From the IMG/VR virus record IMGVR_UViG_3300031873_001030: 64,000 bases of DNA. One strand, given 5' to 3'. A program made the position numbers and the translations under genes. Below the pieces are notes generated by a model. The model had not been told where the DNA came from, did not search any database, and was given only the letters and a program-made list of their open reading frames with translations. Positions 1 to 41,763 of the stretch are shown piece by piece. Each line of letters starts with the position of its first letter. Position 1 is the first letter of the stretch. Origin of the DNA: a virus. Lineage: Duplodnaviria > Heunggongvirae > Uroviricota > Caudoviricetes.

Positions 1-84
1 GAAGAATTTGAAGACGGAGAATGGAGAGAATACTATAATGACGATAGTGAAGACATAATGGAGATGATAGATAATGGGAAATGA
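1..84 (+). CDS. 3' end of an upstream ORF running into the window (acidic tail ...EEFEDGEWREYYNDDSEDIMEMIDNGK*)
   Basis: Open frame from position 1 to TGA at 82-84; partial, no start in window. Confidence 0.2.
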   Translation, partial: EEFEDGEWREYYNDDSEDIMEMIDNGK

Positions 85-295
85 AGATGAATGGGATAAG
101 GTAAGGACAATATGTAAGGATTTGCTATACTTGGCTAAGATGAATGGATATGAGAAAGAATCCTTCTTTACATCTATGATTATACTGACAAACTTGAGGA
201 AGTCTTTGGATAGTGAAGATAATGTATGTATGCTTGAGGAAATGGAAAAGGAATTGAGGGAAGAGATACGTAGAAGGATAGGTGGATTTTCTTGA
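74..295 (+). CDS. hypothetical small protein (73 aa)
   Basis: ATG ORF from track; part of a run of co-oriented small ORFs; no recognisable motif. Confidence 0.3.
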   Translation: MGNEDEWDKVRTICKDLLYLAKMNGYEKESFFTSMIILTNLRKSLDSEDNVCMLEEMEKELREEIRRRIGGFS

Positions 296-371
296 GAGAG
301 GGATTTTGTAAAATAAAGAATGAGTATGCCTTCTGTTATTATTTTTCATTTGGACAGACTTATAATAGTCT

Positions 372-695
372 TTGTGGAAAGTTCAAGATAACTCCCACGA
401 AGAATGGATTTATAGTCAGAGAGAGGTGATACACGTATGTTTGAGGAAGAGGAAGAGATTGAAGAGAATGAGGAAGAAGAAGATGAAAAAGTGGAATGAC
501 AAGAAGTTAGTGAAAAATATAATGAAATACGAAGAAGGACTTATGGAAGACAAAGAAGTTGTGCTATTCTTTCAGTATCTTGTTGATATAGGAATGGCTT
601 GGACTTTACAAGGACACTATGGAAGGACTGCCCAATATCTTATTGACAGAGGATTTGTTGAAGACAAAAGAGGTAGGACGAATGTTGAACATTAA
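372..695 (+). CDS. hypothetical protein (107 aa, basic K/R-rich N-terminus)
   Basis: ORF track; ends 3 nt before palindrome copy 1. Confidence 0.3.
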   Translation: MWKVQDNSHEEWIYSQREVIHVCLRKRKRLKRMRKKKMKKWNDKKLVKNIMKYEEGLMEDKEVVLFFQYLVDIGMAWTLQGHYGRTAQYLIDRGFVEDKRGRTNVEH

Positions 696-697
696 AT

Positions 698-715
698 CAT
701 TAACATATGTTAATG
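698..715. repeat. 18-bp perfect palindrome CATTAACATATGTTAATG (core TTAACATATGTTAA), copy 1
   Basis: Exact palindrome read in sequence; intergenic between ORFs 372-695 and 739-975. Confidence 0.9.
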
Positions 716-738
716 TAAAAAATATGGGATTGGTGTGA

Positions 739-975
739 ATGTTTGACGAGAAATGGATAGCTCATTTGGAGAAGGAACACAACGAGAGATGTTCTGATAG
801 GGATTTGAGAAAGAAGAATAAGATATATGAAGTTTCTAAAAAGTATGCTAAGGATTGTATCAAGTGTCAATATATCTGTGAGAGAAGCAATAATTTTCAA
901 TCCACGTTGAAAGAGTTGAAGAGAATGGGTTGGAAGATATATTTTCCTAAAGTGAGACAAACCAGAGGAGATTGA
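739..975 (+). CDS. hypothetical small protein (78 aa, Cys-containing)
   Basis: ORF track. Confidence 0.3.
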   Translation: MFDEKWIAHLEKEHNERCSDRDLRKKNKIYEVSKKYAKDCIKCQYICERSNNFQSTLKELKRMGWKIYFPKVRQTRGD

Positions 976-985
976 AATCTTATGT

Positions 986-1003
986 CATTAACATATGTTA
1001 AAC
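986..1003. repeat. palindrome core TTAACATATGTTAA copy 2 (core at 988-1001)
   Basis: Exact 14-bp core read in sequence, intergenic. Confidence 0.9.
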
Positions 1004-1195
1004 ATTTTTTTTCTAGCGAACCAAACAGGAAGGTGTAGAATGAAAAAGAAAAAAACATATTGGATAATTGATTGGTGTAATGTGGAAAATTGTAAAGTAG
1101 CATATACATTAACAGAAGCAAGAAAATTTGCGAAAGAATTATATGAAGATAGTTCTCGCGTAATCATATTTCAATATATAGAAGAAAAGAGTTAG
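995..1195 (+). CDS. hypothetical small protein (66 aa)
   Basis: ORF track. Confidence 0.25.
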   Translation: MLNIFFLANQTGRCRMKKKKTYWIIDWCNVENCKVAYTLTEARKFAKELYEDSSRVIIFQYIEEKS

Positions 1196-1206
1196 AGGTG
1201 TAGAAA

Positions 1207-1578
1207 ATGGGAATGTATAGTTCTACTGATTGGTGTGAATTGAAAGTGAAAAGGGGAAAGGAAATAGAATTTTTTGATTGGCTTAAGAGGAATGAAGATT
1301 GGAAAGAAGCGATAGAAGTATTGAATGGCGAAGTAGAGATACAAGTCAGTTGGAAGATTATAAGTTATTGGTATGACAGCTTCCTTGACGAACTTGAACA
1401 GCTTGCTGAATATATTACAGGAAAATGGATATTGCTTTATGAGACAGGAGAAAGCAAAGCCATAATAACATTTACAGAAGATGACGAAGTGAAGATAGAA
1501 GTTGGGGAAATGGATTATCACAAAATTGATATAGATGATTTGAGAAAGGAAAATATGAAAATGGAAAGGAGTGATTAA
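1207..1578 (+). CDS. hypothetical protein (123 aa)
   Basis: ORF preceded by GAGGTG Shine-Dalgarno-like motif 7 nt upstream; stop codon TAA lies inside palindrome copy 3. Confidence 0.4.
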   Translation: MGMYSSTDWCELKVKRGKEIEFFDWLKRNEDWKEAIEVLNGEVEIQVSWKIISYWYDSFLDELEQLAEYITGKWILLYETGESKAIITFTEDDEVKIEVGEMDYHKIDIDDLRKENMKMERSD

Positions 1579-1626
1579 CATATGTTAAGAGAGTCGGCGG
1601 ACCCTGAGTTGCTTAACATATGTTAA
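1575..1626. repeat. pair of palindrome cores (1575-1588, 1613-1626) separated by a 24-nt GC-rich spacer GAGAGTCGGCGGACCCTGAGTTGC
   Basis: Read directly; spacer is near 60% GC in a genome near 33% GC. Confidence 0.9.
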
Positions 1627-1795
1627 GAAGCTTCATCCCGTTTCCATAGTAAATTTAAATACTATGGAAACTAATATTACATATGGTTAGATGGAAAAAA
1701 GATAGCCATATGATATTTGACAGCAACAATATCTATAATGATTTAGGTAATTGTTGGATTGACTTGAAAGCAAAGAAAAAAATGAGGTGATATGA

Positions 1796-1886
1796 AATGC
1801 CTGTTGGAAGACCTAAAGGTTATAGTCCTAAGAGAGATAATCAGAAGTGGAACTATTGCCCAAATTGTGGGAAGAAAGTAAATTGA
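1796..1886 (+). CDS. 29-aa zinc-ribbon micro-ORF (MPVGRPKGYSPKRDNQKWNYCPNCGKKVN)
   Basis: ATG with GAGGTGA 8 nt upstream; CxxC motif; below the 60-aa cutoff of the ORF track. Confidence 0.3.
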
Positions 1887-1905
1887 ACTAAAGAGGTAAT
1901 GAATT

Positions 1906-2094
1906 GTGAATTTGGAGAAGATTGTAAAGAAGATACAATTCCATAAAGAGATATTGATAAAGTTGAAGAATGATATGATTAAGAAGCATAGTCCTTTAGC
2001 TCCTGCGTATATAACTCATATACGTAGTTTGGAAGGTTTCTTGGCATATCTTGAAAAGGAGTTCAAAGCTATTGGAGAACAGAAAGAAGATTGA
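1906..2094 (+). CDS. hypothetical small protein (62 aa)
   Basis: ORF track. Confidence 0.25.
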   Translation: MNLEKIVKKIQFHKEILIKLKNDMIKKHSPLAPAYITHIRSLEGFLAYLEKEFKAIGEQKED

Positions 2095-2313
2095 TATGCT
2101 GAAAGGAAGTCTTTATAGATATTTCTTTTGTAAGGAAAAGAAAGAAAAAGAATATAGGTGTCCAAAATGCGATTGTATTTTGGAGATAGAGATAAAATGT
2201 GGACCCAAGTGATATTGATGAATAAATTACACGTAGATATATTTGGTATGGATATGGATTTTGTTAAATGTAATTCTATAAAAAATTCTCAGACAAGCGC
2301 TTCTGAAGACAAC

Positions 2314-2504
2314 TTAACATATGTTAAGAATTCAGCAGTACCTGCAGCAAGCAACTCATTAACATATGTTAAGTATCTCCATCGAATCATCCTTGGCAAA
2401 CGCCAGACCCAGGAACACAAGTCTTTAACATATGTTAATGTAATCATTGGCCGCATTGCCTCAAACAAGAAAGAAAATCCCAGTCGCCCATTAACATATG
2501 TTAA
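2314..2504. repeat. mini-array of 4 palindrome cores (2314-2327, 2359-2372, 2425-2438, 2491-2504) with unique spacers of 31, 52 and 52 nt
   Basis: Exact repeats read in sequence; spacers are GC-rich and unique; repeat-to-repeat distances 45/66/66 are all multiples of 3. Confidence 0.9.
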
Positions 2505-2641
2505 TAAGTTGGTGCCAGCAATTGCTTGGCAACCAACAGCATACAAAGTGATATTATGAATCATATTCCTTTCATATGAAGCAGATATGTGGAAAATATT
2601 TGATACAATAATAGAAGGGAGAAAAAATGAGTTAAAAAGAG

Positions 2642-2854
2642 ATGCGAATAATGAAAATATTTAATTACAACGTGAGCATAACAATAAAGAAAGATTATCC
2701 TAATTGTAAAGCTCCTATTCAAAAGAGATATAGAGAAAAAAAGAGGATGCGTGGTTTTTGTATAAATGGTGGATGTTGGAACAAAGTTGAAAATAACCGT
2801 TCCAAATGTCCAATCTGTATGGAAAAAGATAGGAAGAGATGGAAAGTGAGATAG
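2642..2854 (+). CDS. small Cys-rich zinc-finger protein (70 aa)
   Basis: CxxC...CxxC pattern (CKAP...CINGGC...CPIC). Confidence 0.35.
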   Translation: MRIMKIFNYNVSITIKKDYPNCKAPIQKRYREKKRMRGFCINGGCWNKVENNRSKCPICMEKDRKRWKVR

Positions 2855-2867
2855 TTAGTGATTATTT

Positions 2868-3089
2868 GTGGACATAATAATTTCAACATTGATAGCATTT
2901 GGCTCTTTGGTATTGGCGATATTTTTCATACTTATTGCGAGGTGGGACGCAAACAAAGTGATAGATAAGTTGTATAGAGAGGAATATAAAGAGAGAAATA
3001 GGATTGATGCGAATGTTGTCAAATCACTTGTAGGGAACTTGAAACAGAAAAGAGATGATGAAATATCTAGTTCGGAATATACAAAATGA
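2868..3089 (+). CDS. small membrane protein (73 aa, one N-terminal TM helix)
   Basis: Hydrophobic stretch IISTLIAFGSLVLAIFFILIA. Confidence 0.3.
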   Translation: MDIIISTLIAFGSLVLAIFFILIARWDANKVIDKLYREEYKERNRIDANVVKSLVGNLKQKRDDEISSSEYTK

Positions 3090-3440
3090 TTTTTAAGTAG
3101 CAACGTGTAATTATTAGATTAGTTAGATATAGAGGAGTGAAGGAAGTAACTAAAGAATCTCGTTTCTTTGGATATTTTCTTTAAGAATAAAGTATAATGG
3201 AGGTGGCAAATGTCATTCTACGAAAGATTGGAGAGGAGAGCAAAAGCACTTAATGATATAATGTGGGGTTCAGACGATGAGACTGAAAGTGAATAACTCT
3301 ACTATTAATACTTTAGCAATTAATTATACTATAGGGACTTTAGGAGTTCCTATGGTATAAAAAATCTAGGGGCTTTGTTCCTAGTTAGAAAGGGATATTC
3401 TTCCTTTCTAAAAATATGGTAAAAATAAGGTGATATATAA

Positions 3441-4010
3441 ATGAAGACAATAGAAGTAGAAATAAAAGGTCCTATTTTGCTGATGCATAATCCGAAGTCT
3501 ATGCTAGACCCACAGACTACTGGAACGAAATCATCAACTGCGAAATATGACTATAATGTCGAAGCAGAGAAGTCTGCTTACAAGACGAAAAAAAATGAAT
3601 TATATATTCCTGCCCAAGCTATGTTCAGTTCCACATTGAATGGAGCTTCTTTCAAGAAAGTAGGAAAATATACTGCCAAGAGCATTATAGCTGGCAATAT
3701 GAGAATAGAGCCAGAAGAAATCCTGATTCTAGATAGCAAAGGGAAAGTCATGACAAAATATGAGATAGACTTGAGGACTGTGGTTATTGCTCAAGGTAAG
3801 AAAAGAAACCGAATAGTCAGGGCAAGAGCTATGGTAAAGGATTGGAGTGCTAGATTCAGAATAGTCTATAACGACCAATTCATAGGCGACCCTGCTATAA
3901 TAGAAGATTGCTTGAAGGATGCAGGTTCAAGGATAGGTCTGTTGGAATACAGACCACAGACAAGTGGAAGCTACGGAACATTTGAGATAGTGAAATTCAA
4001 GGTGATATAA
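3441..4010 (+). CDS. hypothetical protein (189 aa), translationally coupled to the downstream ParB-like gene
   Basis: AAGGTGA Shine-Dalgarno-like motif 8 nt upstream; stop TAA overlaps the ATG of the next gene (TAAATG). Confidence 0.5.
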   Translation: MKTIEVEIKGPILLMHNPKSMLDPQTTGTKSSTAKYDYNVEAEKSAYKTKKNELYIPAQAMFSSTLNGASFKKVGKYTAKSIIAGNMRIEPEEILILDSKGKVMTKYEIDLRTVVIAQGKKRNRIVRARAMVKDWSARFRIVYNDQFIGDPAIIEDCLKDAGSRIGLLEYRPQTSGSYGTFEIVKFKVI

Positions 4011-4895
4011 ATGGCACTATGGGATAGGGAAGAAAGAAAGCATACGGAAAATAAAGTATTGCCACTCAAGGATATAGTATTTGATGAGAACATATATCCA
4101 AGACAAAGTTCATGGTGGCAAACTTCGTATAAATATGCCGAAGAGATGAAAGCAGGCGCAAGGTTTCCTCCAATCACAGTAGGTTTTGTGAATGGAAGAT
4201 ACGTGCTTGTGGATGGGAAGCATAGGAATGACGCACTTCTGATGAATAAGGAGACACATACATCAGTAGTAGTTCTCTATGGTTACACTTTGGATGAACT
4301 CTATATTGAAGCTGTAAAACTCAATAGGGCTCACGGTGTAGGACTTACTTCTTTCGACAAGGTCAAGATAATCAAGAGACTTGAAGATATGAAATATTCA
4401 TTGGGAGACATAGCCACGATAGTCCAGATTCCTTTGGGAAGCATAGAGAAATTTGTAGCACAGAGGATTACGTTAAATCCATTAGGACAAGTCACAGTAT
4501 TGAAATCTCCTCTCAAGTTTATGGCAGGAGGAACTATAACGATGACTGACGAAGAGCAAGATACTCTAAGTGTGAGGAGTGAGATAAGTCTGGTAAATCA
4601 GATGACACAGATATTCTCAAATCCGAAGATGCTAAGGGTTGATATAACATTCGTTGATGCTATCGAGAAGCTTTACCAACTGATTCAAGATTTCCTCAAA
4701 GAACAGAAAATTTTGAATGGAGCTGGAAATACAATAGAAGAAGTTCCAAAAGAGAAAATATACAAGAAAAGAGGAAGACCTAAGAAAATCAAGACTGAAA
4801 GTGAGACTTCAGAACCAAAGAAAAAGGGAAGACCTAAAGGTTCTAAGAACAAGCTTAAAGAACTTGATGTCAGTAACGTCAAAGAACAAGCATAA
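4011..4895 (+). CDS. ParB-like nuclease-domain protein with C-terminal AT-hook motifs
   Basis: N-terminal region with VDGKHRNDAL resembles the ParB/Srx catalytic motif; C-terminus carries two KRGRPKK/KKGRPKG AT-hooks. Confidence 0.55.
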   Translation: MALWDREERKHTENKVLPLKDIVFDENIYPRQSSWWQTSYKYAEEMKAGARFPPITVGFVNGRYVLVDGKHRNDALLMNKETHTSVVVLYGYTLDELYIEAVKLNRAHGVGLTSFDKVKIIKRLEDMKYSLGDIATIVQIPLGSIEKFVAQRITLNPLGQVTVLKSPLKFMAGGTITMTDEEQDTLSVRSEISLVNQMTQIFSNPKMLRVDITFVDAIEKLYQLIQDFLKEQKILNGAGNTIEEVPKEKIYKKRGRPKKIKTESETSEPKKKGRPKGSKNKLKELDVSNVKEQA

Positions 4896-4943
4896 ATAGT
4901 TAATCAGTTAGACTTTATTTGGAAAGAATGAAGCAGGGTTTAG

Positions 4944-5016
4944 TGACAACGAACCTCAGAGATAGAACTTACTGATTCTTAGAATCAGTTGGTTCTTACT
5001 GCGAGGTTCGTTGTCA
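4944..5016 (+). repeat. 73-nt stem-loop element family, copy A (14-bp terminal stem TGACAACGAACCTC / GAGGTTCGTTGTCA)
   Basis: Terminal inverted repeat with a compensatory substitution relative to copies B, C and D; begins 49 nt after the ParB-like stop. Confidence 0.6.
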
Positions 5017-5431
5017 TAGTTCCTTCCCTCTTCATACTTTCTTTAATATTAGGGAATTTATAAAAACTGTAGGTTTTTATTATGAGATAAGGTTCGGTTG
5101 GGTCAGTTGGGGTGGGTTCCGTTCCGATATGGTATGGTAAGATTATATTTATTGGACGTGGTAGGATAGGGTAGGATGCGATATGGTATTGTTACTTGTT
5201 CCGATATGGTTCGGTGATTTGGGGTTAGGTTAGGTCTGTTCCGATAGGGCAAGGTATGGTATTTTATTTATTCGATACGGTTCGGTTTGGTGGGTTTGGG
5301 TTAGGCAAGATAAGATAGGGTTAGACAAGGTATCTTACTTTTGTATCCGATTGGGTAAGGTCTGGTAGTATTCGGTCCGTTGTGGTTAGGCACGATATGG
5401 TGTGGTAAGGTTTGACATTTATAGTCAGTCA

Positions 5432-5491
5432 TTAACATATGATAAAGAGTTGGACCCAGTGCACGGGTGGCATTCCATTAACATATGTTAA
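5432..5491. repeat. variant palindrome (TTAACATATGATAA, 5432-5445) plus canonical core (5478-5491) with a 32-nt GC-rich spacer
   Basis: Read in sequence; sits at the edge of a satellite block. Confidence 0.85.
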
Positions 5492-5513
5492 TGAGAAAAG
5501 ATAAGAAATAATG
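5472..5513 (+). repeat. 42-bp direct repeat ATTCCATTAACATATGTTAATGAGAAAAGATAAGAAATAATG, copy 1 (copy 2 at 5817-5858)
   Basis: Two identical 42-mers flank the ORF 5526-5798; each is followed by a start codon. Confidence 0.85.
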
Positions 5514-5525
5514 TAAAATGATAAT

Positions 5526-5798
5526 ATGAAGAAGATAAAGGAAGAATTTTGCTTTCGCAGGAATGATACTAGAACTTCATATGATATGCAGAAAGGCTAT
5601 CTGATATATGGCAAGATTGATGACATTTATAATATCATCACTTACAATCTATTTGAGATGTGGAATACTACAAAGTGTTTTAAAAGGTTTAGGAAATTGT
5701 TCGTCACTACTTCAAATCACGAATGGATACATTATCTTGTTCCAGATATAAAAGATGGAAGTCTGATGAAGAAGATTGAAAATTGGTTTAACTGGTAA
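5526..5798 (+). CDS. hypothetical protein (90 aa) bracketed by 42-bp direct repeats
   Basis: ORF track; flanking direct repeats. Confidence 0.35.
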   Translation: MKKIKEEFCFRRNDTRTSYDMQKGYLIYGKIDDIYNIITYNLFEMWNTTKCFKRFRKLFVTTSNHEWIHYLVPDIKDGSLMKKIENWFNW

Positions 5799-5816
5799 AA
5801 TGTATCGTTAACCAAA

Positions 5817-5858
5817 ATTCCATTAACATATGTTAATGAGAAAAGATAAGAAATAATG
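5817..5858 (+). repeat. 42-bp direct repeat copy 2 (contains palindrome core 5823-5836)
   Basis: Identical to 5472-5513. Confidence 0.85.
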
Positions 5859-6150
5859 AAAATCAAAAAGAGGTAAAAAAAATGAGATACTATTGCCGAG
5901 AACATAAGGAAAGTTTTGAGACTACTGTCTGCTTTCTTCAACATGTTCTTAAGGAACACCATAGCATATTTGACATCACAAGTGAATAGATATTTATGTG
6001 ATGAGGTGGGGTCAAGTCAGGTCGGTTCTGGTTGCGATACTGACCTTATCACACCAAACCTCACCTTACCAGGGTTCGATAAGTTGTGATTTGGTAGGAT
6101 AGGGTAAAGTTATTTATATTTGAAACACGTAATTATATGTCAAGGAAGTC

Positions 6151-6223
6151 TGACAACAAACCTCAGAGTTGGAACTTTCTGGTTCTAAAAAATCACTTAG
6201 TTCTTTCTGCGAGGTTTGTTGTC
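6151..6223 (+). repeat. 73-nt stem-loop element, copy B (stem TGACAACAAACCTC / GAGGTTTGTTGTC)
   Basis: Embedded in the satellite; stem co-varies with copies A and D. Confidence 0.6.
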
Positions 6224-6948
6224 TTTGTATCGACTTTATCATTCGGTCAGGTAAGGCGGGTTCAGGTGGGGTATAGTTTCGGTTCGGTATGGTAGTTTGA
6301 CATTTATACGATACGGTAAGGTGAGGTTTGGAAGATAGTCTTTATGATTCGGTAAGGTGGGGTCAGTTGCGATTGTGTGAGGTTTGATTTGGTTTGGTCT
6401 GATTTGGTAGTTTGAGGCAAGGTAAAGTTAATTCCTTTTATATGATAAGGTATGGTCTAATTCGGTCTGGTTTGGTTGGATGGGCTACGTTCCGATAAGG
6501 TTCGGTATGGTAATATGACACTTATACGATTAGGTTCGGTCAGGTAAGGTTGGGTCAAATGCGATTAGGTAAGATGAGGTTCGGTCAGATACGGCAAGAT
6601 ATGGTATAATATTTATTCGGTTAGGTGAGGTCAGTTTAGGTCTGGTCTGATGTAGTTTGGCATGGTAGTATAACACTTATCGGTTTGGTTCGGTATGATG
6701 CGATATGGTCAGATTCGGTTTGATATGGTAGTATGACACTTATTGGTCAGGTTTAGTAGAATATGGTAAGGTTCGGTTCGATACGGTGGGATATGGTCAG
6801 TTAGGATTTGGAAAAGGAGAGAATAGTTTCAAGAAAGAATCAGCCCTTGGGTGAGTCCCTTGAAATGAAAAATGCCGCACCAGAGATGGTGATATTAGGT
6901 AAACTAATATAAATCAAGGTTCGAACCGTCCGTTAGGCAACGGTTCTC

Positions 6949-7020
6949 TGACAACAAACCTCAGAGTTAGAACTTACTGGTTCTTGAAATCAGTTGGTTC
7001 TTTCTGCGAGGTTTGTTGTC
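6949..7020 (+). repeat. 73-nt stem-loop element, copy C
   Basis: Embedded in the satellite; loop AGAGTTAGAACTTACTGGTTCTTGAAATCAGTTGGTTCTTTCTGC. Confidence 0.6.
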
Positions 7021-7963
7021 TTCCTCCAAAAAATTACTTATTCGATAGGGTAAGGATAGGTATGCTATGTCAGGGTCAGGTTTGGTTAGGTTTGATATGG
7101 TATGGTAAGGTAATTTAATACTTTTGCTTTGGTGCAATATGGTAATATTCGGTAGGGTATAATTCGGTGGGTTCCGTTAAGGTATGGTAAGGATTATATT
7201 TATGAAATACGTATATAGGAATAGAGATGATGAAAGGGAACTTAAATTTGAAGTTCCAGATAGTATGTCAATAGCTGAAGCATTTGAATTTGCAGAAAGG
7301 AAATGCGCCAGCATGGAGTGATTATAATTTTTGGTCTGGTAGGGTGCGATTAGGTACGATTGGGTTTGGTCAGATAGGATATGATATGGACTATTGTAAT
7401 TTTCGGTTAGGTGCGGTTAGGTCTGGTTTGGTGCGTTCGAGGTGTGGTCAGATAGGATATGGAACTTTCATTCGTACTTTTCGGTAGGGCATTATTCGGT
7501 CCGATATGGTCTGGTCAATTCCGCTCTGGTTCGGTTAGATAGTGTATGGTGATATATGTTAAGTCGTGGTTTGGTTCGGTCTGGTAGAATGAGGTTTATC
7601 TTTTTTGATAGGCTATCGTTCGGTCTGGTGAGGTATGGTTCGGTAGGGTTCGGCAAGGTTTAATCCTTTTAGGAAAGGGTCTTTGATTCATTCCCTTTCT
7701 ATAAAAGATTTATCCCACGTCTTCGGGATTTATCCCTTCTTTCAGAAGGGATTTATATATCACCGAATCTCGTTTTAAACGAGATTCACAAAGAACTTGT
7801 GGTCGGGTCTGATACGGCAAGGTGTGATACGGTAAGATAAGATTGGGTTATGGTCTGGCAAGGAACTTTTTACTTATATGGTTTGGCACGGTCCATTCCG
7901 TTGCGTTTAGGTGTGGTAAGGCTTGGTATGGTTACGATTTATTTGGCGTAACATATGTAATAC

Positions 7964-8632
7964 GTGTATTTAAGGTTTCTTATGTATAGTTATGCTATGG
8001 CAAAAGATGAGAATAGGGAAATAAACGTCAGTGGAAAGACAATTGCCTTAATCCTTATGGTAATCATTACAATATTTTCAGTAGGCAGTCTGATAGTAGC
8101 CATAAATGATAAAGGTCAAGCTTCCTCAGATTCAACTAGCTGGCAGAACAAATATACAACTTGCAGTTCTGGATTAAGCTCTTGCAACTCTCAACTAAGC
8201 TCTTCTCAATCAAGCTCCTCTTCATGCGCTTCACAACTCAATACTTGCAATAGCAACCTTGATTATTATCAGAACACAGGAGGAACTTGCAGTTCAGATT
8301 TGAGCAATTGCAATGCCAATTATAATACCTGCAATGCCAATCTTAACAATTATAAGACACTTTATTCTAATTGCGGTGGCAGTCTGACTAACTATCAGAC
8401 ACTTTATTCTAACTGCCAGTCAAGCTATTCTACTTGTAATTCTAATTTCAATACTCTGACTTCCACTTACAATTCTCTGAAGTCAAATTCTGATGTCATG
8501 GCACAGAATTATGCCAGTATGAAATGCTGTCCAAGCTGGCCATCCACCAAATACAGCTATTACTATACAAGCAATGGAAATGTCTATTGCACTGATACAG
8601 CAACAGCAAGCACAAAACTTACAGGATGCTAA
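7964..8632 (+). CDS. secreted/anchored Ser/Cys/Asn-rich repeat protein (222 aa) with N-terminal TM anchor
   Basis: TM helix IALILMVIITIFSVGSLIVAI; periodic TCNSNL/NCNANY/TCNANL/NCGGSL/NCQSSY/TCNSNF units with a Cys every 10-11 residues. Confidence 0.45.
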   Translation: MYLRFLMYSYAMAKDENREINVSGKTIALILMVIITIFSVGSLIVAINDKGQASSDSTSWQNKYTTCSSGLSSCNSQLSSSQSSSSSCASQLNTCNSNLDYYQNTGGTCSSDLSNCNANYNTCNANLNNYKTLYSNCGGSLTNYQTLYSNCQSSYSTCNSNFNTLTSTYNSLKSNSDVMAQNYASMKCCPSWPSTKYSYYYTSNGNVYCTDTATASTKLTGC

Positions 8633-8793
8633 ATCATGAGAAAATATACATCCGACAAATGGTTGAAACCTGGTGAAAAATATATCAGCACTGCAGAGAA
8701 AGAACCTGTTCCTAAAAAGAAATATGGTCATGTAGAAATTCCAGATATAGAAGACGATTGATAACTAATATTATAATAGTTTTTAAGTGGTAA

Positions 8794-9276
8794 GTGATGA
8801 GTTACGACGAGACAAGTGATTTAGCATATCTGATATTATTCGTCGGTTGTATAATTGGATTGCTCATACTTATCGTTGGCTTAGTCGGATTTTTCAATCT
8901 TGTCCAAGGATTATATTTTTGGGATTGGTTCATACTATTTATCTTGACATTCCTAGCTTCAGAAGTTTTCTTCCTTCTTGTATTCAAGAAAAAACCGACA
9001 GGAAATGTATTCTGGAAGACATTTGGAAATAAGATTTTATCTTGGATGTCAGGTTCGTTGATAATCGCAGAATTTACTTCTTTCTATTATTACATTATTC
9101 TGAACATAATCAGAGATTGGCTTACCGTATTGGAAGTATTGACTACTATAGGAAAAATAATTGGAATAGGTGTGATGATTGCATCACTTATTGCTTTTTA
9201 CGTATGGTTCAACACTTTGAGATATAAAAATATCAAAGAACCTAAAGGGAAACTTAAAAAAGTATACAAGAGGTGA
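8794..9276 (+). CDS. integral membrane protein (160 aa, about 4 TM helices)
   Basis: Four long hydrophobic segments. Confidence 0.45.
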   Translation: MMSYDETSDLAYLILFVGCIIGLLILIVGLVGFFNLVQGLYFWDWFILFILTFLASEVFFLLVFKKKPTGNVFWKTFGNKILSWMSGSLIIAEFTSFYYYIILNIIRDWLTVLEVLTTIGKIIGIGVMIASLIAFYVWFNTLRYKNIKEPKGKLKKVYKR

Positions 9277-12039: not shown

Positions 12040-12374
12040 GAAAAAAATTCAATTATGAAAACTATTACAAGAAATATTATGAAAGTCATAAGGATAAGCA
12101 CTTGTATTATGTCAATGAATGGAAGAAGAAGCATAAAGATAGTGTAAGAATTTATTCCAAACGTTATTCCAAAAGTTGGAGATTGAGAAACAAAGAAAGA
12201 TTGAAGAAAACTTCAAAAAGATATTATGACAGGCATATCAGAAGTTCTTGGTTCGATAGGATATTTGGTTTCAAATGCAAAGTATGCGGCAAGAGATATA
12301 AAGATAAAAAGGCTTTGGGTGGGCATACCACATATTGTAAAAGAAAAAGGATTGAACTTATTAACATATGTTAA
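12018..12374 (+). CDS. basic K/R/Y-rich protein with C-terminal C2H2-like zinc finger
   Basis: CKVCGKRYKDKKALGGH motif; N-terminal composition similar to the HNH protein N-terminus. Confidence 0.4.
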   Translation: MDKGKKMRKKFNYENYYKKYYESHKDKHLYYVNEWKKKHKDSVRIYSKRYSKSWRLRNKERLKKTSKRYYDRHIRSSWFDRIFGFKCKVCGKRYKDKKALGGHTTYCKRKRIELINIC

Positions 12375-12411
12375 AAAGATTGCATGCAGATAACTTCTTA
12401 ACATATGTTAA
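12361..12411. repeat. pair of palindrome cores (12361-12374, 12398-12411) with a 23-nt spacer
   Basis: Read in sequence; overlap the stop of 12018-12374 and the annotated ATG of 12405. Confidence 0.9.
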
Positions 12412-16499: not shown

Positions 16500-16770
16500 T
16501 AAACCACAGATTACCAGACCATACCCGAACCTATAAGACCACATCACACCTGAGCGAAAAGTGTTAACCATACCACATCAGACTTTATCATGCCTTACCA
16601 GTCCTTAACATATCGTAACTTACCACAACGTAGCATAAATGACAATCCATATCTTACCACACACCAACATATCTTACCAAAACCCACCCTAACCCATCTA
16701 ACCCAATCATAAATATAATCCCTATCTTACCAAATCCCATCACAACGGACCCTACCAAATCAGACCCCGT
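16500..16770 (-). repeat. inverted copy of the (GGTNN)n satellite (reads ACC-rich on +), including the CATAAATGACAA and CATAAATATAATCC punctuation units
   Basis: Reverse complement matches the unit structure of the 5091-7925 array; contains degenerate palindrome TTAACATATCGTAA at 16605-16618. Confidence 0.8.
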
Positions 16771-21728: not shown

Positions 21729-22961
21729 TTGGAGATGAAAGTGATGAACATAGGTGAAGTTGAAATTGGAAAACCTTGGCAATATAAGGAAAATTCTATT
21801 GGAATTGTTGTTCCACTTTTAAGGAAGAATCAAGTCAAAAGAAATTATAAGACAGTTGAGGAAGTTAAGGAGATGATGAATATCAAGGATACTGGAAATA
21901 TAGACAGTGTTGAAATTTCCTCAAAAGTCAATGAACCAGTTTTTATCAGGAGCGGGACGATGTTTGAAGGGGTTGGAACTCAGAGCAGGACGCCAACAAC
22001 TAGCATTGTCATAATTCCAAATCAACAGCCTATGAAAGTTCCTGTAAAATGCATACATGCTTCTCATCACATATCTTCTGGAAGCAACTTTAAAGTCGCA
22101 GGTAGTATTCCCCACTATATTGGTTATGCAGCTTTTGGACCAAGGGCTAGTCAATCTCGTGTGTGGTCTTCTGTAAGCATGCAAGCAAGTTCTGTAAGCC
22201 ATCATGCTATGCATCTTTCTGACAATCTTATCGATAACGTAAGAAAAATAGAAACTTTTAAGAAAGATATTGGCGAAGCAGTTAAAAACTATCCGATATT
22301 GAAAAATCAAGTTGGTATAGTTGTTCTTGATTTTAACGGGGTTGTTGGTCTTGAGATGTTTGATAATTCTGAATCTTGGGCAGCAGTATGTAAAGACATA
22401 ATCAATAAGTATTCTGACACAATAACACAGCTTGTTGACAGTCCTTTATTTTCATTGAATGAAGAAAGCATAAAACCAAAGATATTGGAATTCTTGAAGA
22501 AGCTGACAGAAGCAAAAGAAGAGATTATCTTTCAAGCAGATGTGATGAAAACAATCTTATTGGAAAATGGAGATATCATTGGAGAATGTACGAGTATTGA
22601 TGGCAGGATGATACATCTCATGGGAATGAAAAAGAAGGATGAGGAAAGGACATATGGTTCAGTTGCTCCAAATAATTTACCATTTACACCACAAAATTGG
22701 ACAACCAGAGGTTCTAACTATTCTGTGCTATCTGCACTTGGAGATGGAAGTAGGAGATTTTCAGAAATAGAGAAAACAACTAAATTATCCCCAGCTACAG
22801 TAAGCAAAAATTTAAGCAAGTTCCATTCTCTTGGATTTATTGACAAGTCAGCAGAAATAATAAACAACAAGGCCCGTGAAGTTTATAGCCTTACAAGCAA
22901 CGGTAAAAATGCATTTTTTACTATGCATGATGTCAGGAAGAAATTGATGAAGCTTGGATAA
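21729..22961 (+). CDS. putative transcriptional regulator (410 aa) with C-terminal winged helix-turn-helix
   Basis: C-terminal RRFSEIEKTTKLSPATVSKNLSKFHSLGFIDK resembles ArsR/MarR-type wHTH; N-terminal domain unrecognised. Confidence 0.4.
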   Translation: MEMKVMNIGEVEIGKPWQYKENSIGIVVPLLRKNQVKRNYKTVEEVKEMMNIKDTGNIDSVEISSKVNEPVFIRSGTMFEGVGTQSRTPTTSIVIIPNQQPMKVPVKCIHASHHISSGSNFKVAGSIPHYIGYAAFGPRASQSRVWSSVSMQASSVSHHAMHLSDNLIDNVRKIETFKKDIGEAVKNYPILKNQVGIVVLDFNGVVGLEMFDNSESWAAVCKDIINKYSDTITQLVDSPLFSLNEESIKPKILEFLKKLTEAKEEIIFQADVMKTILLENGDIIGECTSIDGRMIHLMGMKKKDEERTYGSVAPNNLPFTPQNWTTRGSNYSVLSALGDGSRRFSEIEKTTKLSPATVSKNLSKFHSLGFIDKSAEIINNKAREVYSLTSNGKNAFFTMHDVRKKLMKLG

Positions 22962-24415: not shown

Positions 24416-24479
24416 TTAACATATGTTAATCAGTGATGCAGCATAATGCAAAATTCCTTCAGTCTTTAACATATGTTAA
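24416..24479. repeat. pair of palindrome cores (24416-24429, 24466-24479) with a 36-nt spacer
   Basis: Read in sequence; intergenic between the tRNA fragment and tRNA-Pro. Confidence 0.9.
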
Positions 24480-24601
24480 TGTCAAATTAGAAATGCAATA
24501 CGATTGTTAACAAGAAAGTTAACAAAGTCTCACCTGCCAGAATTGCACCAGCATCTACGAGGCTACAGCTCGTTGTTCTACTGTTGAACTAAGGCGAGTT
24601 G

Positions 24602-24674
24602 TGGGGATGCTGAGATTTGAACTCAGATTATTCGCTTCCAGAGCGAAGGTTCTAACAAGTTATACTACATCCCC
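24602..24674 (-). tRNA. tRNA-Pro (anticodon UGG); D-arm non-canonical by eye
   Basis: Minus-strand read GGGGATG...TTCGC-TCTGGAA-GCGAA...CTGAG-TTCAAAT-CTCAG-CATCCCC-A; acceptor, anticodon and T arms perfect. Confidence 0.6.
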
Positions 24675-24677
24675 AAG

Positions 24678-24751
24678 GGAGAATAGAGGGATTTGAACCC
24701 TCTCTAACAAGTTCACAGCTTGACGTGCTCGCCTACTACACCATATTCTCC
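24678..24751 (-). tRNA. tRNA-His (anticodon GUG) with genome-encoded G-1
   Basis: G-1:C73 pair; acceptor GAGAATA/TATTCTC; D-stem GTGT/GCAC; anticodon loop CTGTGAA; T-arm GAGGG-TTCAAAT-CCCTC; 3 nt from tRNA-Pro. Confidence 0.7.
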
Positions 24752-25212
24752 ATTTTATTATGTTCTTCTCTATGGCAATTTGCACATAGAAGTTTGCATT
24801 TCTGCAATTCTTTTCGTATCACCTCGAGACTATTATGCCATATTCTGGATATTTCATATTTCTTTTCTCCGTTCATATGATGAAATTCAAGTGCTGCGAA
24901 ACATTTGTTATATCCACATTTTTGACATTTACCTCCAAATTCCATTTTCATAATTTTTGTTTTTTCTTGGTTTTTACGCTTTTGTGCTATATACCACAAA
25001 TGTCTCTGAGGGAGAGATGATTTTTGTTTATGTTGTTTTATATATTTTCTCATATATTCTCTATGATATTTTTTCCTTTTTTCTCTGTTTTCAGGGTTTG
25101 ACAACCAAATTTTCCATCGTTCTTTTTCTTGCTCACGGTGTGATTTTCTATATAATCTATTTATTTCACACAATCGTTCTTTGTTTTTTTCATAATATTT
25201 TTTACTGGTCAT
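24736..25212 (-). CDS. HNH endonuclease (158 aa); final 5 codons overlap the 5' end of tRNA-His
   Basis: HNH core CQKCGY...LEFHHMNG...N...CANCHREEHN; basic K/R-rich N-terminus; stop TAG at 24736-24738 lies inside tRNA-His. Confidence 0.6.
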   Translation of the reverse strand: MTSKKYYEKNKERLCEINRLYRKSHREQEKERWKIWLSNPENREKRKKYHREYMRKYIKQHKQKSSLPQRHLWYIAQKRKNQEKTKIMKMEFGGKCQKCGYNKCFAALEFHHMNGEKKYEISRIWHNSLEVIRKELQKCKLLCANCHREEHNKMENMV

Positions 25213-25255
25213 ATAATGTAATTGTTTAATACCATTTATATTTGTTGTTGAACTA

Positions 25256-25330
25256 CGCTCTGGGCAAGACTCGAACTTGCAATTTCTCCGTTAACAGCGG
25301 AGCGCTTGTACCTGTTTAAGCTGCCAGAGC
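25256..25330 (-). tRNA. tRNA-Asn (anticodon GUU)
   Basis: GCTCTGG-CA-GCTT-AAACAGGTAC-AAGC-G-CTCCG-CTGTTAA-CGGAG-AAAT-GCAAG-TTCGAGT-CTTGC-CCAGAGC-G; all stems canonical. Confidence 0.75.
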
Positions 25331-25333
25331 AAG

Positions 25334-34622: not shown

Positions 34623-34695
34623 TGACAATGAACCTCAGAGTAGGAACCAACTGGAAAGTGGAATCAGCAAGTCATAACTGCGAGGTTCATTGTCA
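34623..34695 (+). repeat. 73-nt stem-loop element, copy D (stem TGACAATGAACCTC / GAGGTTCATTGTCA)
   Basis: Starts 1 nt after the PrimPol-like stop; stem carries a compensatory AT/AT pair relative to other copies. Confidence 0.6.
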
Positions 34696-35402: not shown

Positions 35403-35414
35403 TCTTTATGTGAT

Positions 35415-35500
35415 GAGTTAGGGTCCGATGGGGTAAGTTAGGATATTGTGAGGTCGGATGTGGTATGTTTGGTGAGGTAAGGTATGGTCCGATATGGTTT
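35415..35500 (+). repeat. short block of the (GGTNN)n satellite
   Basis: GGGTCCGATGGGGTAAGTTAGGATATTGTGAGGTCGGATGTGGTATGTTTGGTGAGGTAAGGTATGGTCCGATATGG. Confidence 0.7.
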
Positions 35501-41671: not shown

Positions 41672-41698
41672 ACTTTGATTACCAATTATTATGACAGC

Positions 41699-41745
41699 GT
41701 ATGGTTAGGTCTGGTTGGATGTGATAAGATAAGGTTTGGTAAGAT
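41699..41745 (+). repeat. short block of the (GGTNN)n satellite
   Basis: TATGGTTAGGTCTGGTTGGATGTGATAAGATAAGGTTTGGTAAG. Confidence 0.6.
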
Positions 41746-41763
41746 AATAAAGAGGTAATGTAA

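What the first reader, a model, noticed from the sequence alone, without database searches (positions are those of the whole stretch)
3441..4895. ParB-like nuclease-domain protein with AT-hooks, coupled to an upstream 189-aa ORF and surrounded by palindrome arrays
A ParB/Srx-type N-terminal domain (VDGKHRNDAL) is fused to two C-terminal AT-hook motifs. Its start overlaps the stop of the preceding ORF (TAAATG). No Walker-type ParA is present. The palindrome copies cluster on both sides at 698-2504 and 5432-5836, and the gene is followed by stem-loop element A and then the 2.8 kb satellite. This could be a partition-like or DNA-targeting module of a mobile element with its own cis sites, or a ParB-nuclease defence or anti-defence gene.
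Basis: partly seen in the sequence, partly recalled or inferred. Interest (0 to 1): 0.5.

Follow-up and report, generated by a model that had tools for sequence, protein, structure and literature searches.

The report
Phage VIPR RNA-guided DNA-silencing locus
The "ParB-like gene pair plus satellite" is a phage-encoded VIPR system: a small CRISPR-related protein, a ParB-like helper protein and about 25-30 pentamer-repeat guide RNAs predicted to switch off chosen DNA targets. This kind of system was first described in 2026, so this is a new and unusually guide-rich example, not a new kind.

Summary
The 189-aa upstream ORF (3441-4010) is a Vipr protein, a minimal Cas7-like RAMP. A family profile matches the solved SUSP1 Vipr at E 9e-17, and the residues that grip the GGY motif are conserved. 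The 294-aa ORF (4011-4895) has a ParB/Noc/KorB-like fold (N-domain plus HTH) and a basic tail with two AT-hooks. It is the vipr-accessory protein (Vap).

The "2.8 kb satellite" (5086-7934) is a set of about 25 vrRNA guides made of G-G/A-Y-N-N pentamers. G1 and Y3 are 92-98% conserved and the NN positions are near maximum entropy. Orphan guides lie at 16.5, 35.4 and 41.7 kb.

The trio of vipr, ParB-like vap and guide array recurs in 12 other loci. The 14-bp palindrome recurs in only two close phage relatives, so it is not the cis site of the pair. There is no ParA.

VIPR systems were published as preprints in 2026, so this is a new member. The ParB-like Vap is unrelated in sequence to SUSP1 Vap1, and the arrays are very large. 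One conserved guide has a candidate wobble-skipping target in an RNase J-like gene, but chance is not excluded.

The parts
3441..4010 (+). vipr: 189-aa Vipr protein, a minimal Cas7-like RAMP (RRM core, beta-hairpin thumb around residues 108-143, glycine-rich loop 166-181)
   Evidence: A family profile matches PDB 36pp 'SUSP1 Vipr protein' at E 9.3e-17 over residues 1-174. phrog_4652 scores 2e-17. The AF2 model has pLDDT 87.5 and pTM 0.82. Foldseek top hits are Cmr4, Csm3 and type VII Cas7 backbones at E about 1e-6. The SUSP1 GGY-contact residues H17/R138/D177/W178/R179 correspond to H16/R129/E169/Y170/R171 here. R129 and R171 are invariant in the family (H16 pairs with H17 only in the gapped profile alignment).
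4011..4895 (+). vap: 294-aa ParB-like vipr-accessory protein. ParB/Srx N-domain at residues 11-107 (nt 4041-4331, motif DGKHR at 68-72). HTH at residues 114-152 (nt 4350-4466). Disordered linker, then C-terminal helices at 188-231. Basic tail with AT-hooks at nt 4770-4784 and 4824-4838.
   Evidence: A homologous gene lies next to vipr in L003, L005, L007, L036, L037 and L095 and in six IMG/VR loci. A more distant ParB-type hit lies close to vipr in L057 and 2.5 kb away in L085. It has no sequence similarity to SUSP1 Vap1 or to the LESphi2 neighbour.
4944..5016 (+). hairpin 'element A', copy 1 (28 predicted pairs). Other copies are at 6152-6223, 6950-7020 and 34624-34694. The first three each precede a guide sub-array.
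   Evidence: It is not found in related loci, so it is probably not a core VIPR part. It could be a terminator, a processing site or a small repeated element.
5086..5422 (+). vrRNA array 1: 5 guides of 8-14 GGYNN pentamers, each ending in a short A/T-rich YTTAT-type spacer or tail
   Evidence: Guide 5349-5418 is conserved in L095 and L003.
6000..6112 (+). two short vrRNA-like tracts (7 and 8 pentamers). A 6-pentamer tract lies on the opposite strand at 6041-6070.
6245..6814 (+). vrRNA array 2: about 9 back-to-back guides (10-17 pentamers each) separated by GGTAR-TATGACACTTAT-like tails
7044..7195 (+). vrRNA array 3: 2 guides of 14 pentamers
7333..7661 (+). vrRNA array 4: about 4-5 guides
7801..7934 (+). 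vrRNA array 5: 2 guides
16511..16766 (-). orphan array of 4 vrRNA-like guides on the minus strand, co-oriented with the local minus-strand gene block, with the same ATTTAT-type boundaries
35412..35500 (+). orphan vrRNA-like tracts (12 and 7 pentamers) in an intergenic gap
41693..41747 (+). orphan vrRNA-like tract (11 pentamers) in an intergenic gap

Best explanation
The locus is a phage-encoded VIPR (Viral Interference Programmable Repeat) system.

Shown here:
- A vipr gene lies at 3441-4010 and is abutted by a ParB-like vap gene at 4011-4895.
- About 25 co-oriented guide units follow at 5086-7934. Each is 7-21 tandem G-G/A-Y-N-N pentamers. More guides are scattered elsewhere in the genome.

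Inferred from the published SUSP1 and P. fulva work:
- The arrays are transcribed and cut into vrRNAs.
- One Vipr protomer binds each pentamer. It buries the GGY bases and displays the NN dinucleotides.
- The filament binds double-stranded DNA whose sequence reads NN-x-NN-x..., skipping one base per unit.
- This forms an R-loop triplex that blocks transcription of the target. Published targets are mostly competing phages or satellites.

Inferred here with less confidence:
- The ParB-like Vap binds DNA through its HTH and its AT-hook tail and reinforces silencing at or around Vipr-bound sites.
- It might do this by bridging or spreading along the DNA in the manner of ParB or KorB.
- It is not a partition protein.
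For: Vipr identity:
- The family profile matches the solved SUSP1 Vipr at E 9e-17.
- Pairwise BLASTP to the SUSP1 Vipr gene product gives 4e-9.
- The model has a RAMP fold.
- The GGY-contact residues are conserved.

Guide arrays:
- Over 232 pentamers, G1 is 92%, position 2 is G 64% or A 24%, and Y3 is 98%. Entropy at N4 and N5 is 1.86 and 1.94 bits.
- There are 17 strong tracts against 0 in shuffles.
- The orientation and the 9-16-unit length class match SUSP1 vrRNAs read directly from KT454805.

Conserved architecture:
- vipr, ParB-like vap and a downstream array occur in L003 (at least 34 tracts over 3.7 kb), L005, L007, L037 and L095.
- L036 has the same three parts in a different order.
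- Six IMG/VR loci also carry the trio.
- 53 of 54 IMG/VR Vipr loci have GGYNN tracts beside vipr.

Other support:
- No guide matches the window itself above a shuffled null, as published for other VIPRs.
- Vap fold.
- Published mechanism, and the finding that vap1 co-expression enhances protection: bioRxiv 10.64898/2026.04.26.720920 and 10.64898/2026.04.26.720927.
- The viral context includes 4 tRNAs, many small ORFs and phage-type genes.
Against: - No expression or processing data exist for these guides.
- The units lack the structured pseudoknot tail of the SUSP1 clade, and no ribozyme was found. How the arrays are cut is unknown.
- Position 2 of the pentamer is G in only 64% of units.
- Vipr is only about 20% identical to the characterised SUSP1 protein.
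- Natural targets were not established. Exact seeds of two guides found nothing in IMG/VR, and shorter seeds gave chance hits that did not extend.
- The one candidate target could be chance.
- The Vap role is purely inferred. Its GERRxRA box reads DGKHRNDA, so ParB-type CTP clamping is not assured.
- It shares no sequence similarity with the only Vap tested experimentally.
Confidence: 0.85

Rival explanations
1. Vap is a KorB-like global regulator. Its HTH binds the 14-bp palindrome TTAACATATGTTAA. The palindrome sits upstream of early genes and between guide sub-arrays. Vap would thereby control early transcription, including vrRNA expression, in this phage lineage.
For: The palindrome has 15 copies, often paired and 25-45 nt upstream of small-ORF starts. 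Eleven of them lie within 3.5 kb of the pair. The same motif is interspersed with guides in L095, and a variant occurs in L005. KorB is a ParB-family repressor that acts at about 12 palindromic operators (established knowledge). KorB is among the top structural matches.
Against: Eight of 10 loci with a homologous vap have no repeated inverted repeat at all. L003 Vap is as similar to the window Vap as L005 Vap is (53%), yet L003 has no palindrome. Many other small HTH-type regulators could be the binder. Vap always travels with vipr and guides, not with the palindrome.
Confidence: 0.08
2. The pair is a partition-like (ParB/centromere) module, with the palindromes as parS-like sites that maintain an episomal element.
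For: The protein has a ParB-like fold with an HTH. Palindrome arrays lie on both sides.
Against: There is no ParA or other partition NTPase. The upstream partner is a RAMP, not an NTPase. The palindrome is not conserved with the gene. The GERR arginine patch is degenerate. The conserved companions are guide arrays.
Confidence: 0.02
3. The ParB-like protein is a stand-alone ParB-nuclease or NTPase defence or anti-defence gene that merely sits next to vipr.
For: DGxHR-type ParB/Srx domains occur in defence-linked proteins such as DndB and GmrSD_N. Family members gave weak GmrSD_N and DUF6551 hits.
Against: PADLOC gives no hit. Adjacency to vipr holds across a wide range of Vipr divergence, from 97 to 281 bits against the Vipr family profile, and in two gene orders. 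No nuclease catalytic motif was identified.
Confidence: 0.04
4. The GGT-rich 5-nt-periodic DNA is a non-functional or structural satellite, for example a replication or packaging region, unrelated to the genes.
For: The region has strong strand asymmetry and is repetitive.
Against: The same pentamer grammar lies next to vipr in 53 of 54 independent viral loci. The NN positions are hypervariable while G1 and Y3 are fixed. Unit lengths match published vrRNAs. One guide's NN code is conserved across three diverged phages.
Confidence: 0.01

Closest known systems
Type II VIPR system of Escherichia phage SUSP1 (vipr + vap1 + 4 vrRNAs; bioRxiv 10.64898/2026.04.26.720920; PDB 36pp)
   Same: Both have a homologous Vipr RAMP with conserved GGY-binding residues. 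In both, vipr is followed directly by an accessory gene. Both have co-oriented GGYNN tandem-repeat guides in the flanking non-coding DNA. Both are phage-encoded. Neither shows self-targeting.
   Different: Vipr is only about 20% identical. Vap here is a 294-aa ParB-like protein with AT-hooks, with no sequence similarity to the 146-aa SUSP1 Vap1. There are about 25-30 guides instead of 4. Guides are packed back to back with 10-15-nt A/T-rich YTTAT-type spacers instead of an invariable tail of roughly 30 nt with a pseudoknot. The second G is relaxed (G/A). Extra guides are dispersed over the genome, on both strands.
Class 1 CRISPR-Cas backbone RAMPs (Cas7 family: Csm3, Cmr4, type VII Cas7)
   Same: Same fold (RRM, thumb, G-loop; Foldseek E about 1e-6). 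Both use one protomer per repeat of guide RNA with periodic base flipping.
   Different: There is no CRISPR array, no cas genes and no second RRM. The period is 5 nt (3 buried, 2 read) rather than 6 nt. The guide is itself a tandem repeat.
ParB / Noc / KorB CTP-dependent DNA clamps
   Same: The N-terminal ParB/Srx domain followed by an HTH gives the top structural matches. Box I (YPR) and box III (invariant N105) remnants are present.
   Different: Box II GERRxRA reads DGKHRNDA, which is closer to the Srx/SerK/SbnI/DndB 'DGxHR' type. There is no ParA and no conserved parS-like site. The C-terminus is a helical segment plus an AT-hook tail, not the ParB dimerisation domain as far as can be told.
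AT-hook motif (HMGA-type minor-groove binder)
   Same: KKRGRPKK is a canonical R-G-R-P core flanked by K/R.
   Different: The second copy is a KGRP variant. The tail is not conserved. Only 3 of 13 family members have a GRP core, others have plain K/R-rich tails or none.

Membership tests
VIPR system | Encodes a Vipr protein (minimal RAMP with RRM core, thumb and G-loop) homologous to characterised Viprs | tested here: met
   Profile against PDB 36pp SUSP1 Vipr gives E 9.3e-17. BLASTP to the SUSP1 gene product gives 4e-9. Foldseek to Cas7-family RAMPs has probability 1.0.
VIPR system | Residues that recognise GGY (SUSP1 H17, R138, D177, W178, R179) are present | tested here: met
   They correspond to H16, R129, E169 (family consensus D), Y170 and R171. 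R129 and R171 are invariant in 30 sequences. The H16/H17 pairing comes from the gapped profile alignment; the ungapped BLASTP places H16 opposite S16.
VIPR system | Flanking non-coding DNA carries YNNGG/GGYNN tandem repeats (at least 4 units, typically 9-16), co-oriented with vipr | tested here: met
   There are 22 tracts of 7-21 units on the + strand at 5086-7934. At score 6 or above there are 17 tracts against 0 in 200 shuffles.
VIPR system | GGY conserved while NN is hypervariable | tested here: met
   Entropy is 0.51, 1.35 and 0.47 bits at positions 1-3 against 1.86 and 1.94 bits at positions 4-5, over 232 pentamers. Position 2 is relaxed (G 64%, A 24%).
VIPR system | Minimal two-gene locus: vipr plus a vipr-accessory (vap) gene predicted to interact with DNA | tested here: met
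   The TAA-ATG junction is abutting. Vap has a ParB-like fold with an HTH and AT-hooks. The pairing is conserved in 12 further loci.
VIPR system | No CRISPR array or cas genes; viral genome context | tested here: met
   There are no CRISPR-type repeats. The context has tRNAs, small ORFs and phage-type genes. Relatives are IMG/VR viral contigs.
VIPR system | Guides do not match the element's own genome under the 1-nt-skip rule | tested here: met
   The best self-matches do not exceed the unit-order-shuffled null for 23 guides.
VIPR system | Guides match natural targets (at least 80% of NN bases) with skip bases at codon wobble positions | tested here: inconclusive
   One guide family (5349-5418) gives 12 of 12 database hits on one RNase J-like motif, antisense, with the skip base at codon position 3. 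The window's own guide reaches 23/28. The rough chance expectation is 0.15-0.25 hits per collection. Other guides gave nothing.
VIPR system | vrRNAs are expressed, processed to about 100 nt and co-purify with Vipr; the RNP represses targets | not testable with these tools
   Requires small-RNA sequencing, pull-down and reporter assays.
Type II VIPR (SUSP1 / P. fulva clade) | vap1-type accessory gene and an invariable structured 3' tail (pseudoknot) on each vrRNA | tested here: not met
   Vap has no similarity to SUSP1 Vap1 or to the LESphi2 neighbour. Unit ends are short A/T-rich GGTAR-TATGACACTTAT-like strings with no hairpin, unlike the SUSP1 tails. Which of the other six published types it belongs to could not be read, because the figures and data S4 are not held.
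ParB family (partition / CTP clamp) | ParB/Srx N-terminal domain followed by an HTH DNA-binding domain | tested here: met
   Foldseek to Noc, ParB and KorB over 140-210 columns gives E 3e-7 to 1e-5. The profile hits 4umk across both domains.
ParB family (partition / CTP clamp) | Pfam PF02195 (ParB_N) at gathering threshold | tested here: not met
   There is no Pfam hit on this protein. One family member reached E 9.5e-4 when rescanned, and three members carry a precomputed PF02195 hit.
ParB family (partition / CTP clamp) | Box II arginine patch GERRxRA (CTP binding) | tested here: not met
   The aligned segment reads DGKHRNDA (family consensus DGKHRxEA). Only one Arg is retained.
ParB family (partition / CTP clamp) | Cognate ParA (deviant Walker A ATPase) in the same operon | tested here: not met
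   There is no KGGxGK[ST] motif in the window. The only P-loop ORF is 14 kb away.
ParB family (partition / CTP clamp) | Conserved palindromic parS-like sites accompanying the gene | tested here: not met
   A repeated palindrome is present in only 2 of 10 tested related loci carrying the gene.
AT-hook | R-G-R-P core flanked by basic residues | tested here: met
   KKRGRPKK lies at 254-258 and the variant KKKGRPKG at 272-276.

The most novel reading that the evidence does not exclude
This ParB-Vap clade would be a distinct VIPR variant. In it, the Vipr-vrRNA R-loop triplex would serve as a programmable loading site for a ParB-like, NTP-gated DNA clamp or bridge that spreads silencing beyond the guide footprint. 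It would be RNA-guided 'parS-free' ParB loading, deployed with 25-40 guides per phage. In addition, at least one guide that is conserved in three diverged phages would be aimed not at a rival mobile element but at a cellular RNase J-like beta-CASP gene. That would mean VIPR is used for host takeover.
Probability: 0.15. Interest if true: 0.8.

Novelty: new member of a known kind. Interest (0 to 1): 0.55.

Why it matters
VIPR is a very recently described RNA-guided way of recognising DNA and a proposed ancestor of CRISPR RAMPs. Only the SUSP1 and P. fulva (type II) systems have been studied in detail.

This locus and its relatives differ in two ways. The accessory protein is ParB-like rather than Vap1-like. 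The guide repertoire is an order of magnitude larger, at about 25-30 guides here and at least 34 tracts in relative L003, with extra guides scattered through the genome.

That gives a natural test bed for several questions:
- How are dense arrays processed without ribozymes or structured tails?
- What does an accessory ParB-like protein add to a purely steric silencer?
- Whom do such phages fight?

For annotation, it shows that 'ParB-like nuclease domain' genes next to a roughly 190-aa hypothetical protein and GGT-rich 'satellites' should be read as VIPR loci.

Tried and rejected
- Direct Pfam, NCBIfam and PADLOC scans of both proteins gave nothing useful.
- A phmmer search of Vap against PDB gave only spurious myoglobin hits.
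- blastn and tblastn of the locus and of Vap against 50,697 GenBank phages found no match. Vipr found only distant hits.
- Rfam at E up to 1 on 1-9000 found no ribozyme or other known RNA.
- Partition module: rejected, because there is no ParA and the palindrome is not conserved.
- Hairpin element A as a core VIPR part: rejected, because it is absent from relatives and a fourth copy lies away from the arrays.
- Sigma-70 promoter scan: no enrichment over shuffles.
- Target hunting: 20-base exact seeds of guides 6528-6607 and 5349-5418 gave 0 hits in IMG/VR. 16-base seeds gave 27 and 21 hits that do not extend, so they are chance.
- Guides of relatives against this window: the best match is 17/20, which is not significant after multiple testing.
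- The degenerate conserved-guide pattern gave 0 hits in IMG/VR.
- The candidate target gene has no homologue in the window or in related loci and no PADLOC hit. In Erysipelothrix it sits in a sugar ABC-transporter operon, which does not look like a rival mobile element.
- The afdb50 fold library was unavailable.
The host remains unknown.
Full report
**Observation**

The two ORFs are present exactly as described, at 3441-4010 (189 aa) and 4011-4895 (294 aa). The stop TAA abuts the next ATG with no overlap. Both starts follow the same GGTGATATA(T)AA context.

The window is about 35% G+C with a strong G-over-C skew on the coding strand. It carries four tRNAs. Its genes include many small ORFs, a PD-(D/E)XK nuclease, methyltransferases, glycosyltransferases and a 3752-aa DUF285 protein, which fits a large uncultivated phage. 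It has no close relative among 50,697 GenBank phages.

**The 294-aa protein**

Pfam, NCBIfam and PADLOC give nothing on the protein itself. The ParB call is still supported by four results:
- PHROG 1033 'ParB-like partition protein' scores 6e-6.
- The 5.8-billion-protein search found 13 proteins (the query itself plus 12 relatives), three of which carry PF02195.
- A profile of the family hits H. pylori ParB (4umk) at E 6e-4 across the N-domain and HTH. In that alignment LVDGKHRxEA aligns to LIAGERRLRA.
- An AF2 model (pLDDT above 80 for residues 11-150) retrieves Noc, ParB, KorB, PadC, sulfiredoxin and SerK/SbnI by Foldseek.

Box II therefore keeps only one of three arginines. It is of the 'DGxHR' Srx/SerK/DndB type.

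The tail (residues 232-294) is disordered and basic, with 19 K/R in 63 residues. It holds KKRGRPKK and KKKGRPKG. Homologues have a GRP core in only 3 of 13 cases. The others have plain K/R-rich tails or none. No ParA-type Walker A exists in the window.

**The 189-aa protein**

This protein is the key to the locus. It belongs to phrog_4652 (2e-17) and gave 31 database matches (itself plus 30 relatives). A 30-sequence profile matches PDB 36pp, 'SUSP1 Vipr protein', at E 9.3e-17 over nearly its full length. The AF2 model is confident (pLDDT 87.5, pTM 0.82). Its best structural neighbours are CRISPR type III and type VII Cas7-family backbone subunits.

Two 2026 preprints describe Vipr:
- It is a minimal RAMP that polymerises on vrRNAs made of alternating GGY/NN pentamers.
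- It buries GGY and presents NN.
- It binds dsDNA by a one-nucleotide-skip code and forms an R-loop triplex that silences transcription.
- Loci are typically vipr plus one accessory gene (vap), flanked by guide-encoding non-coding DNA, and are mostly found in phages.

The SUSP1 residues that read GGY are H17, R138, D177, W178 and R179. They correspond here to H16, R129, E169 (family consensus D), Y170 and R171. R129 and R171 are invariant. H16 pairs with H17 only in the gapped profile alignment.

**The 'satellite'**

A scan for in-phase GGY every 5 nt finds 22 tracts on the + strand between 5086 and 7934. It also finds two sites further downstream on the + strand (35412-35500 and 41693-41747). 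A four-unit array lies on the minus strand at 16511-16766, inside a minus-strand gene block.

Over 232 pentamers the composition is as follows:

| Position | Composition | Entropy (bits) |
|---|---|---|
| 1 | G 92% | 0.51 |
| 2 | G 64%, A 24% | 1.35 |
| 3 | T 92%, pyrimidine 98% | 0.47 |
| 4 | variable | 1.86 |
| 5 | variable | 1.94 |

Composition-matched shuffles give no tracts at all.

Units are 7-21 pentamers long, mostly 10-14. They begin just after a YTTAT(N0-2) boundary. They commonly end with GATAT-GGTAT-GGTAR followed by TATGACACTTAT-like A/T-rich strings.

SUSP1's own vrRNAs, read from KT454805, show the same grammar. They carry a longer structured tail, and there are only four of them.

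**Conservation**

Close and distant relatives were recovered by exact-protein look-up:

| Locus | Source | Vap identity to window | Guide tracts |
|---|---|---|---|
| L003 | 106-kb NCBI assembly | 53% | at least 34, over 3.7 kb |
| L005 | 66-kb JGI contig | 53% | 10 |
| L007 | 26-kb contig | 38% | 6 |
| L037 | 4.7-kb contig | not measured | 2 |
| L095 | 8.4-kb contig | about 75% | 7 |

All five carry vipr, then a homologous ParB-like vap, then guide arrays. L036 has the order vap, a single 13-unit GGC guide, then vipr.

In IMG/VR, 54 contigs encode Vipr relatives, and 53 of them have GGYNN tracts beside the gene. Six have an adjacent ParB-like Vap. A more distant ParB-type hit lies close to vipr in L057 and 2.5 kb away in L085. 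A seventh IMG/VR locus with the adjacent pair (L038) came from the Vap search. Vap-bearing loci tend to have the larger arrays, with 11-14 tracts against a typical 1-5.

The ParB-like Vap shows no sequence similarity to SUSP1 Vap1 or to the neighbour of the LESphi2 Vipr. Neither preprint mentions ParB in its text. I could not read the figure or table that defines vap1-6 and the seven types.

**Palindrome and hairpin**

TTAACATATGTTAA is strongly over-represented, with 15 copies against 0.03 expected. Copies often come in pairs and lie 25-45 nt upstream of small-ORF starts. The closest relative L095 has it four times, interspersed with guides. L005 has a variant, TTATCATATGATAA, spread over 16 kb.

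Eight other loci carrying vipr plus ParB-like vap have no repeated inverted repeat of any kind. The palindrome therefore tracks a phage lineage and is probably an early-gene operator or promoter element. It does not track the gene pair.

Hairpin element A has 28 predicted pairs and four copies. It is absent from relatives and is not strictly array-linked.

**Targets**

- No guide matches the window above a unit-shuffled null, which is consistent with the published absence of self-targeting.
- Exact seeds from two guides found nothing meaningful in IMG/VR.
- Guide 5349-5418 is conserved at its NN positions in L095 and L003.
- I built a 12-unit pattern that allows the two alleles of that guide. 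It hit 4 metagenome contigs and 8 genomes: Erysipelothrix three times, Helcococcus, Alkaliphilus, Caldisericales, Aciduliprofundum and Thermoplasmata.
- All 12 hits lie antisense on the motif [ML][KT]IAYTGD[FL]R[FL]H of a divergent RNase J-family beta-CASP/MBL gene. Every skipped base falls on a codon third position.
- This is the signature reported for genuine VIPR targets.

There are three caveats:
- The 12 hits amount to one evolutionary event.
- My rough chance expectation is 0.15-0.25 hits per collection.
- The window's own guide reaches only 23/28.

In addition, the gene is chromosomal in Erysipelothrix, where it sits in a sugar-transport operon. It is absent from IMG/VR. I treat this as a lead only.

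**Verdict**

The locus is a VIPR system.

The mechanism of Vipr plus vrRNA is inferred by homology from experimentally and structurally characterised systems. The role of the ParB-like Vap is my inference: DNA binding that reinforces or spreads silencing.

As a kind of system it is already known from the 2026 preprints. This is a new, guide-rich member with a ParB-like accessory protein that the available text does not describe.

Noticed in passing
window 700-2504, 5432-5836, 12361-12411, 24416-24479: The 14-bp perfect palindrome TTAACATATGTTAA occurs 15 times against 0.03 expected. Copies often come in pairs 37-66 nt apart and lie 25-45 nt upstream of small-ORF starts. The copy at 5432 is a hybrid (TTAACATATGATAA) with the half-site used by relative L005. 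It is probably an operator or promoter element of early genes. The protein that binds it is unknown.
   Followed up: partly
window 4944-5016, 6152-6223, 6950-7020, 34624-34694: There are four copies of a 72-nt imperfect hairpin (28 predicted pairs, one compensatory change). Three of them lie just upstream of guide sub-arrays. The hairpin is absent from related phages. It could be an RNase III-type processing site, a terminator or a small repeated element.
   Followed up: partly
window 5472-5517 and 5817-5862, flanking ORF 5526-5798: A 46-nt direct repeat (98% identical, containing the palindrome) brackets a 90-aa ORF with no family hit. The ORF sits in the middle of the guide arrays and looks like an inserted or duplicated promoter-gene cassette.
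   Followed up: no
window 16511-16766 (-), 35412-35500 (+), 41693-41747 (+), 6041-6070 (-): vrRNA-like GGYNN tracts lie far from vipr, in intergenic gaps and co-oriented with local genes. This suggests guides are dispersed around the genome. One short tract lies antisense inside the main array.
   Followed up: partly
window 24527-25331 (-): A cluster of four tRNA genes (Tyr-GTA, Pro-TGG, His-GTG, Asn-GTT) lies next to a palindrome pair.
   Followed up: no
window 49389-60647 (+): A giant 3752-aa ORF is made of DUF285 (BspA-like, 'Mycoplasma') repeats (E 3e-138). A 1340-aa ORF with no family hit precedes it at 44139-48161, in a region of higher G+C (about 0.42).
   Followed up: no
window 21729-22961 (+): A 410-aa protein combines an ARPP-1 domain (ARG and Rhodanese-Phosphatase-superfamily-associated Protein domain) with a C-terminal winged-helix domain.
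   Followed up: no
window 7964-8632 (+): A 222-aa Ser/Asn/Cys-rich ORF with internal 126-nt repeats lies directly after the last guide array. An N-terminal hydrophobic stretch suggests it is secreted or membrane-bound.
   Followed up: no
L003:9399-13081: The relative from NCBI assembly GCA_964352345.1 carries at least 34 guide tracts over 3.7 kb behind vipr-vap. Its units end in GGWTTCATGCTTA-type boundaries, so tail sequences are clade-specific.
   Followed up: partly
L036:4824-6326: A distant member has the gene order ParB-like vap, a single perfect 13-unit GGC-NN guide, then vipr. The three parts stay together even when they are rearranged.
   Followed up: partly
L096:4303-4337, L097-L099, L121-L128: The candidate target of the conserved guide 5349-5418 is the motif [ML][KT]IAYTGD[FL]R[FL]H of a divergent RNase J-like beta-CASP gene. 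The match is antisense, with skipped bases at codon third positions in all 12 hits. In Erysipelothrix the gene lies in a sugar ABC-transporter operon.
   Followed up: partly
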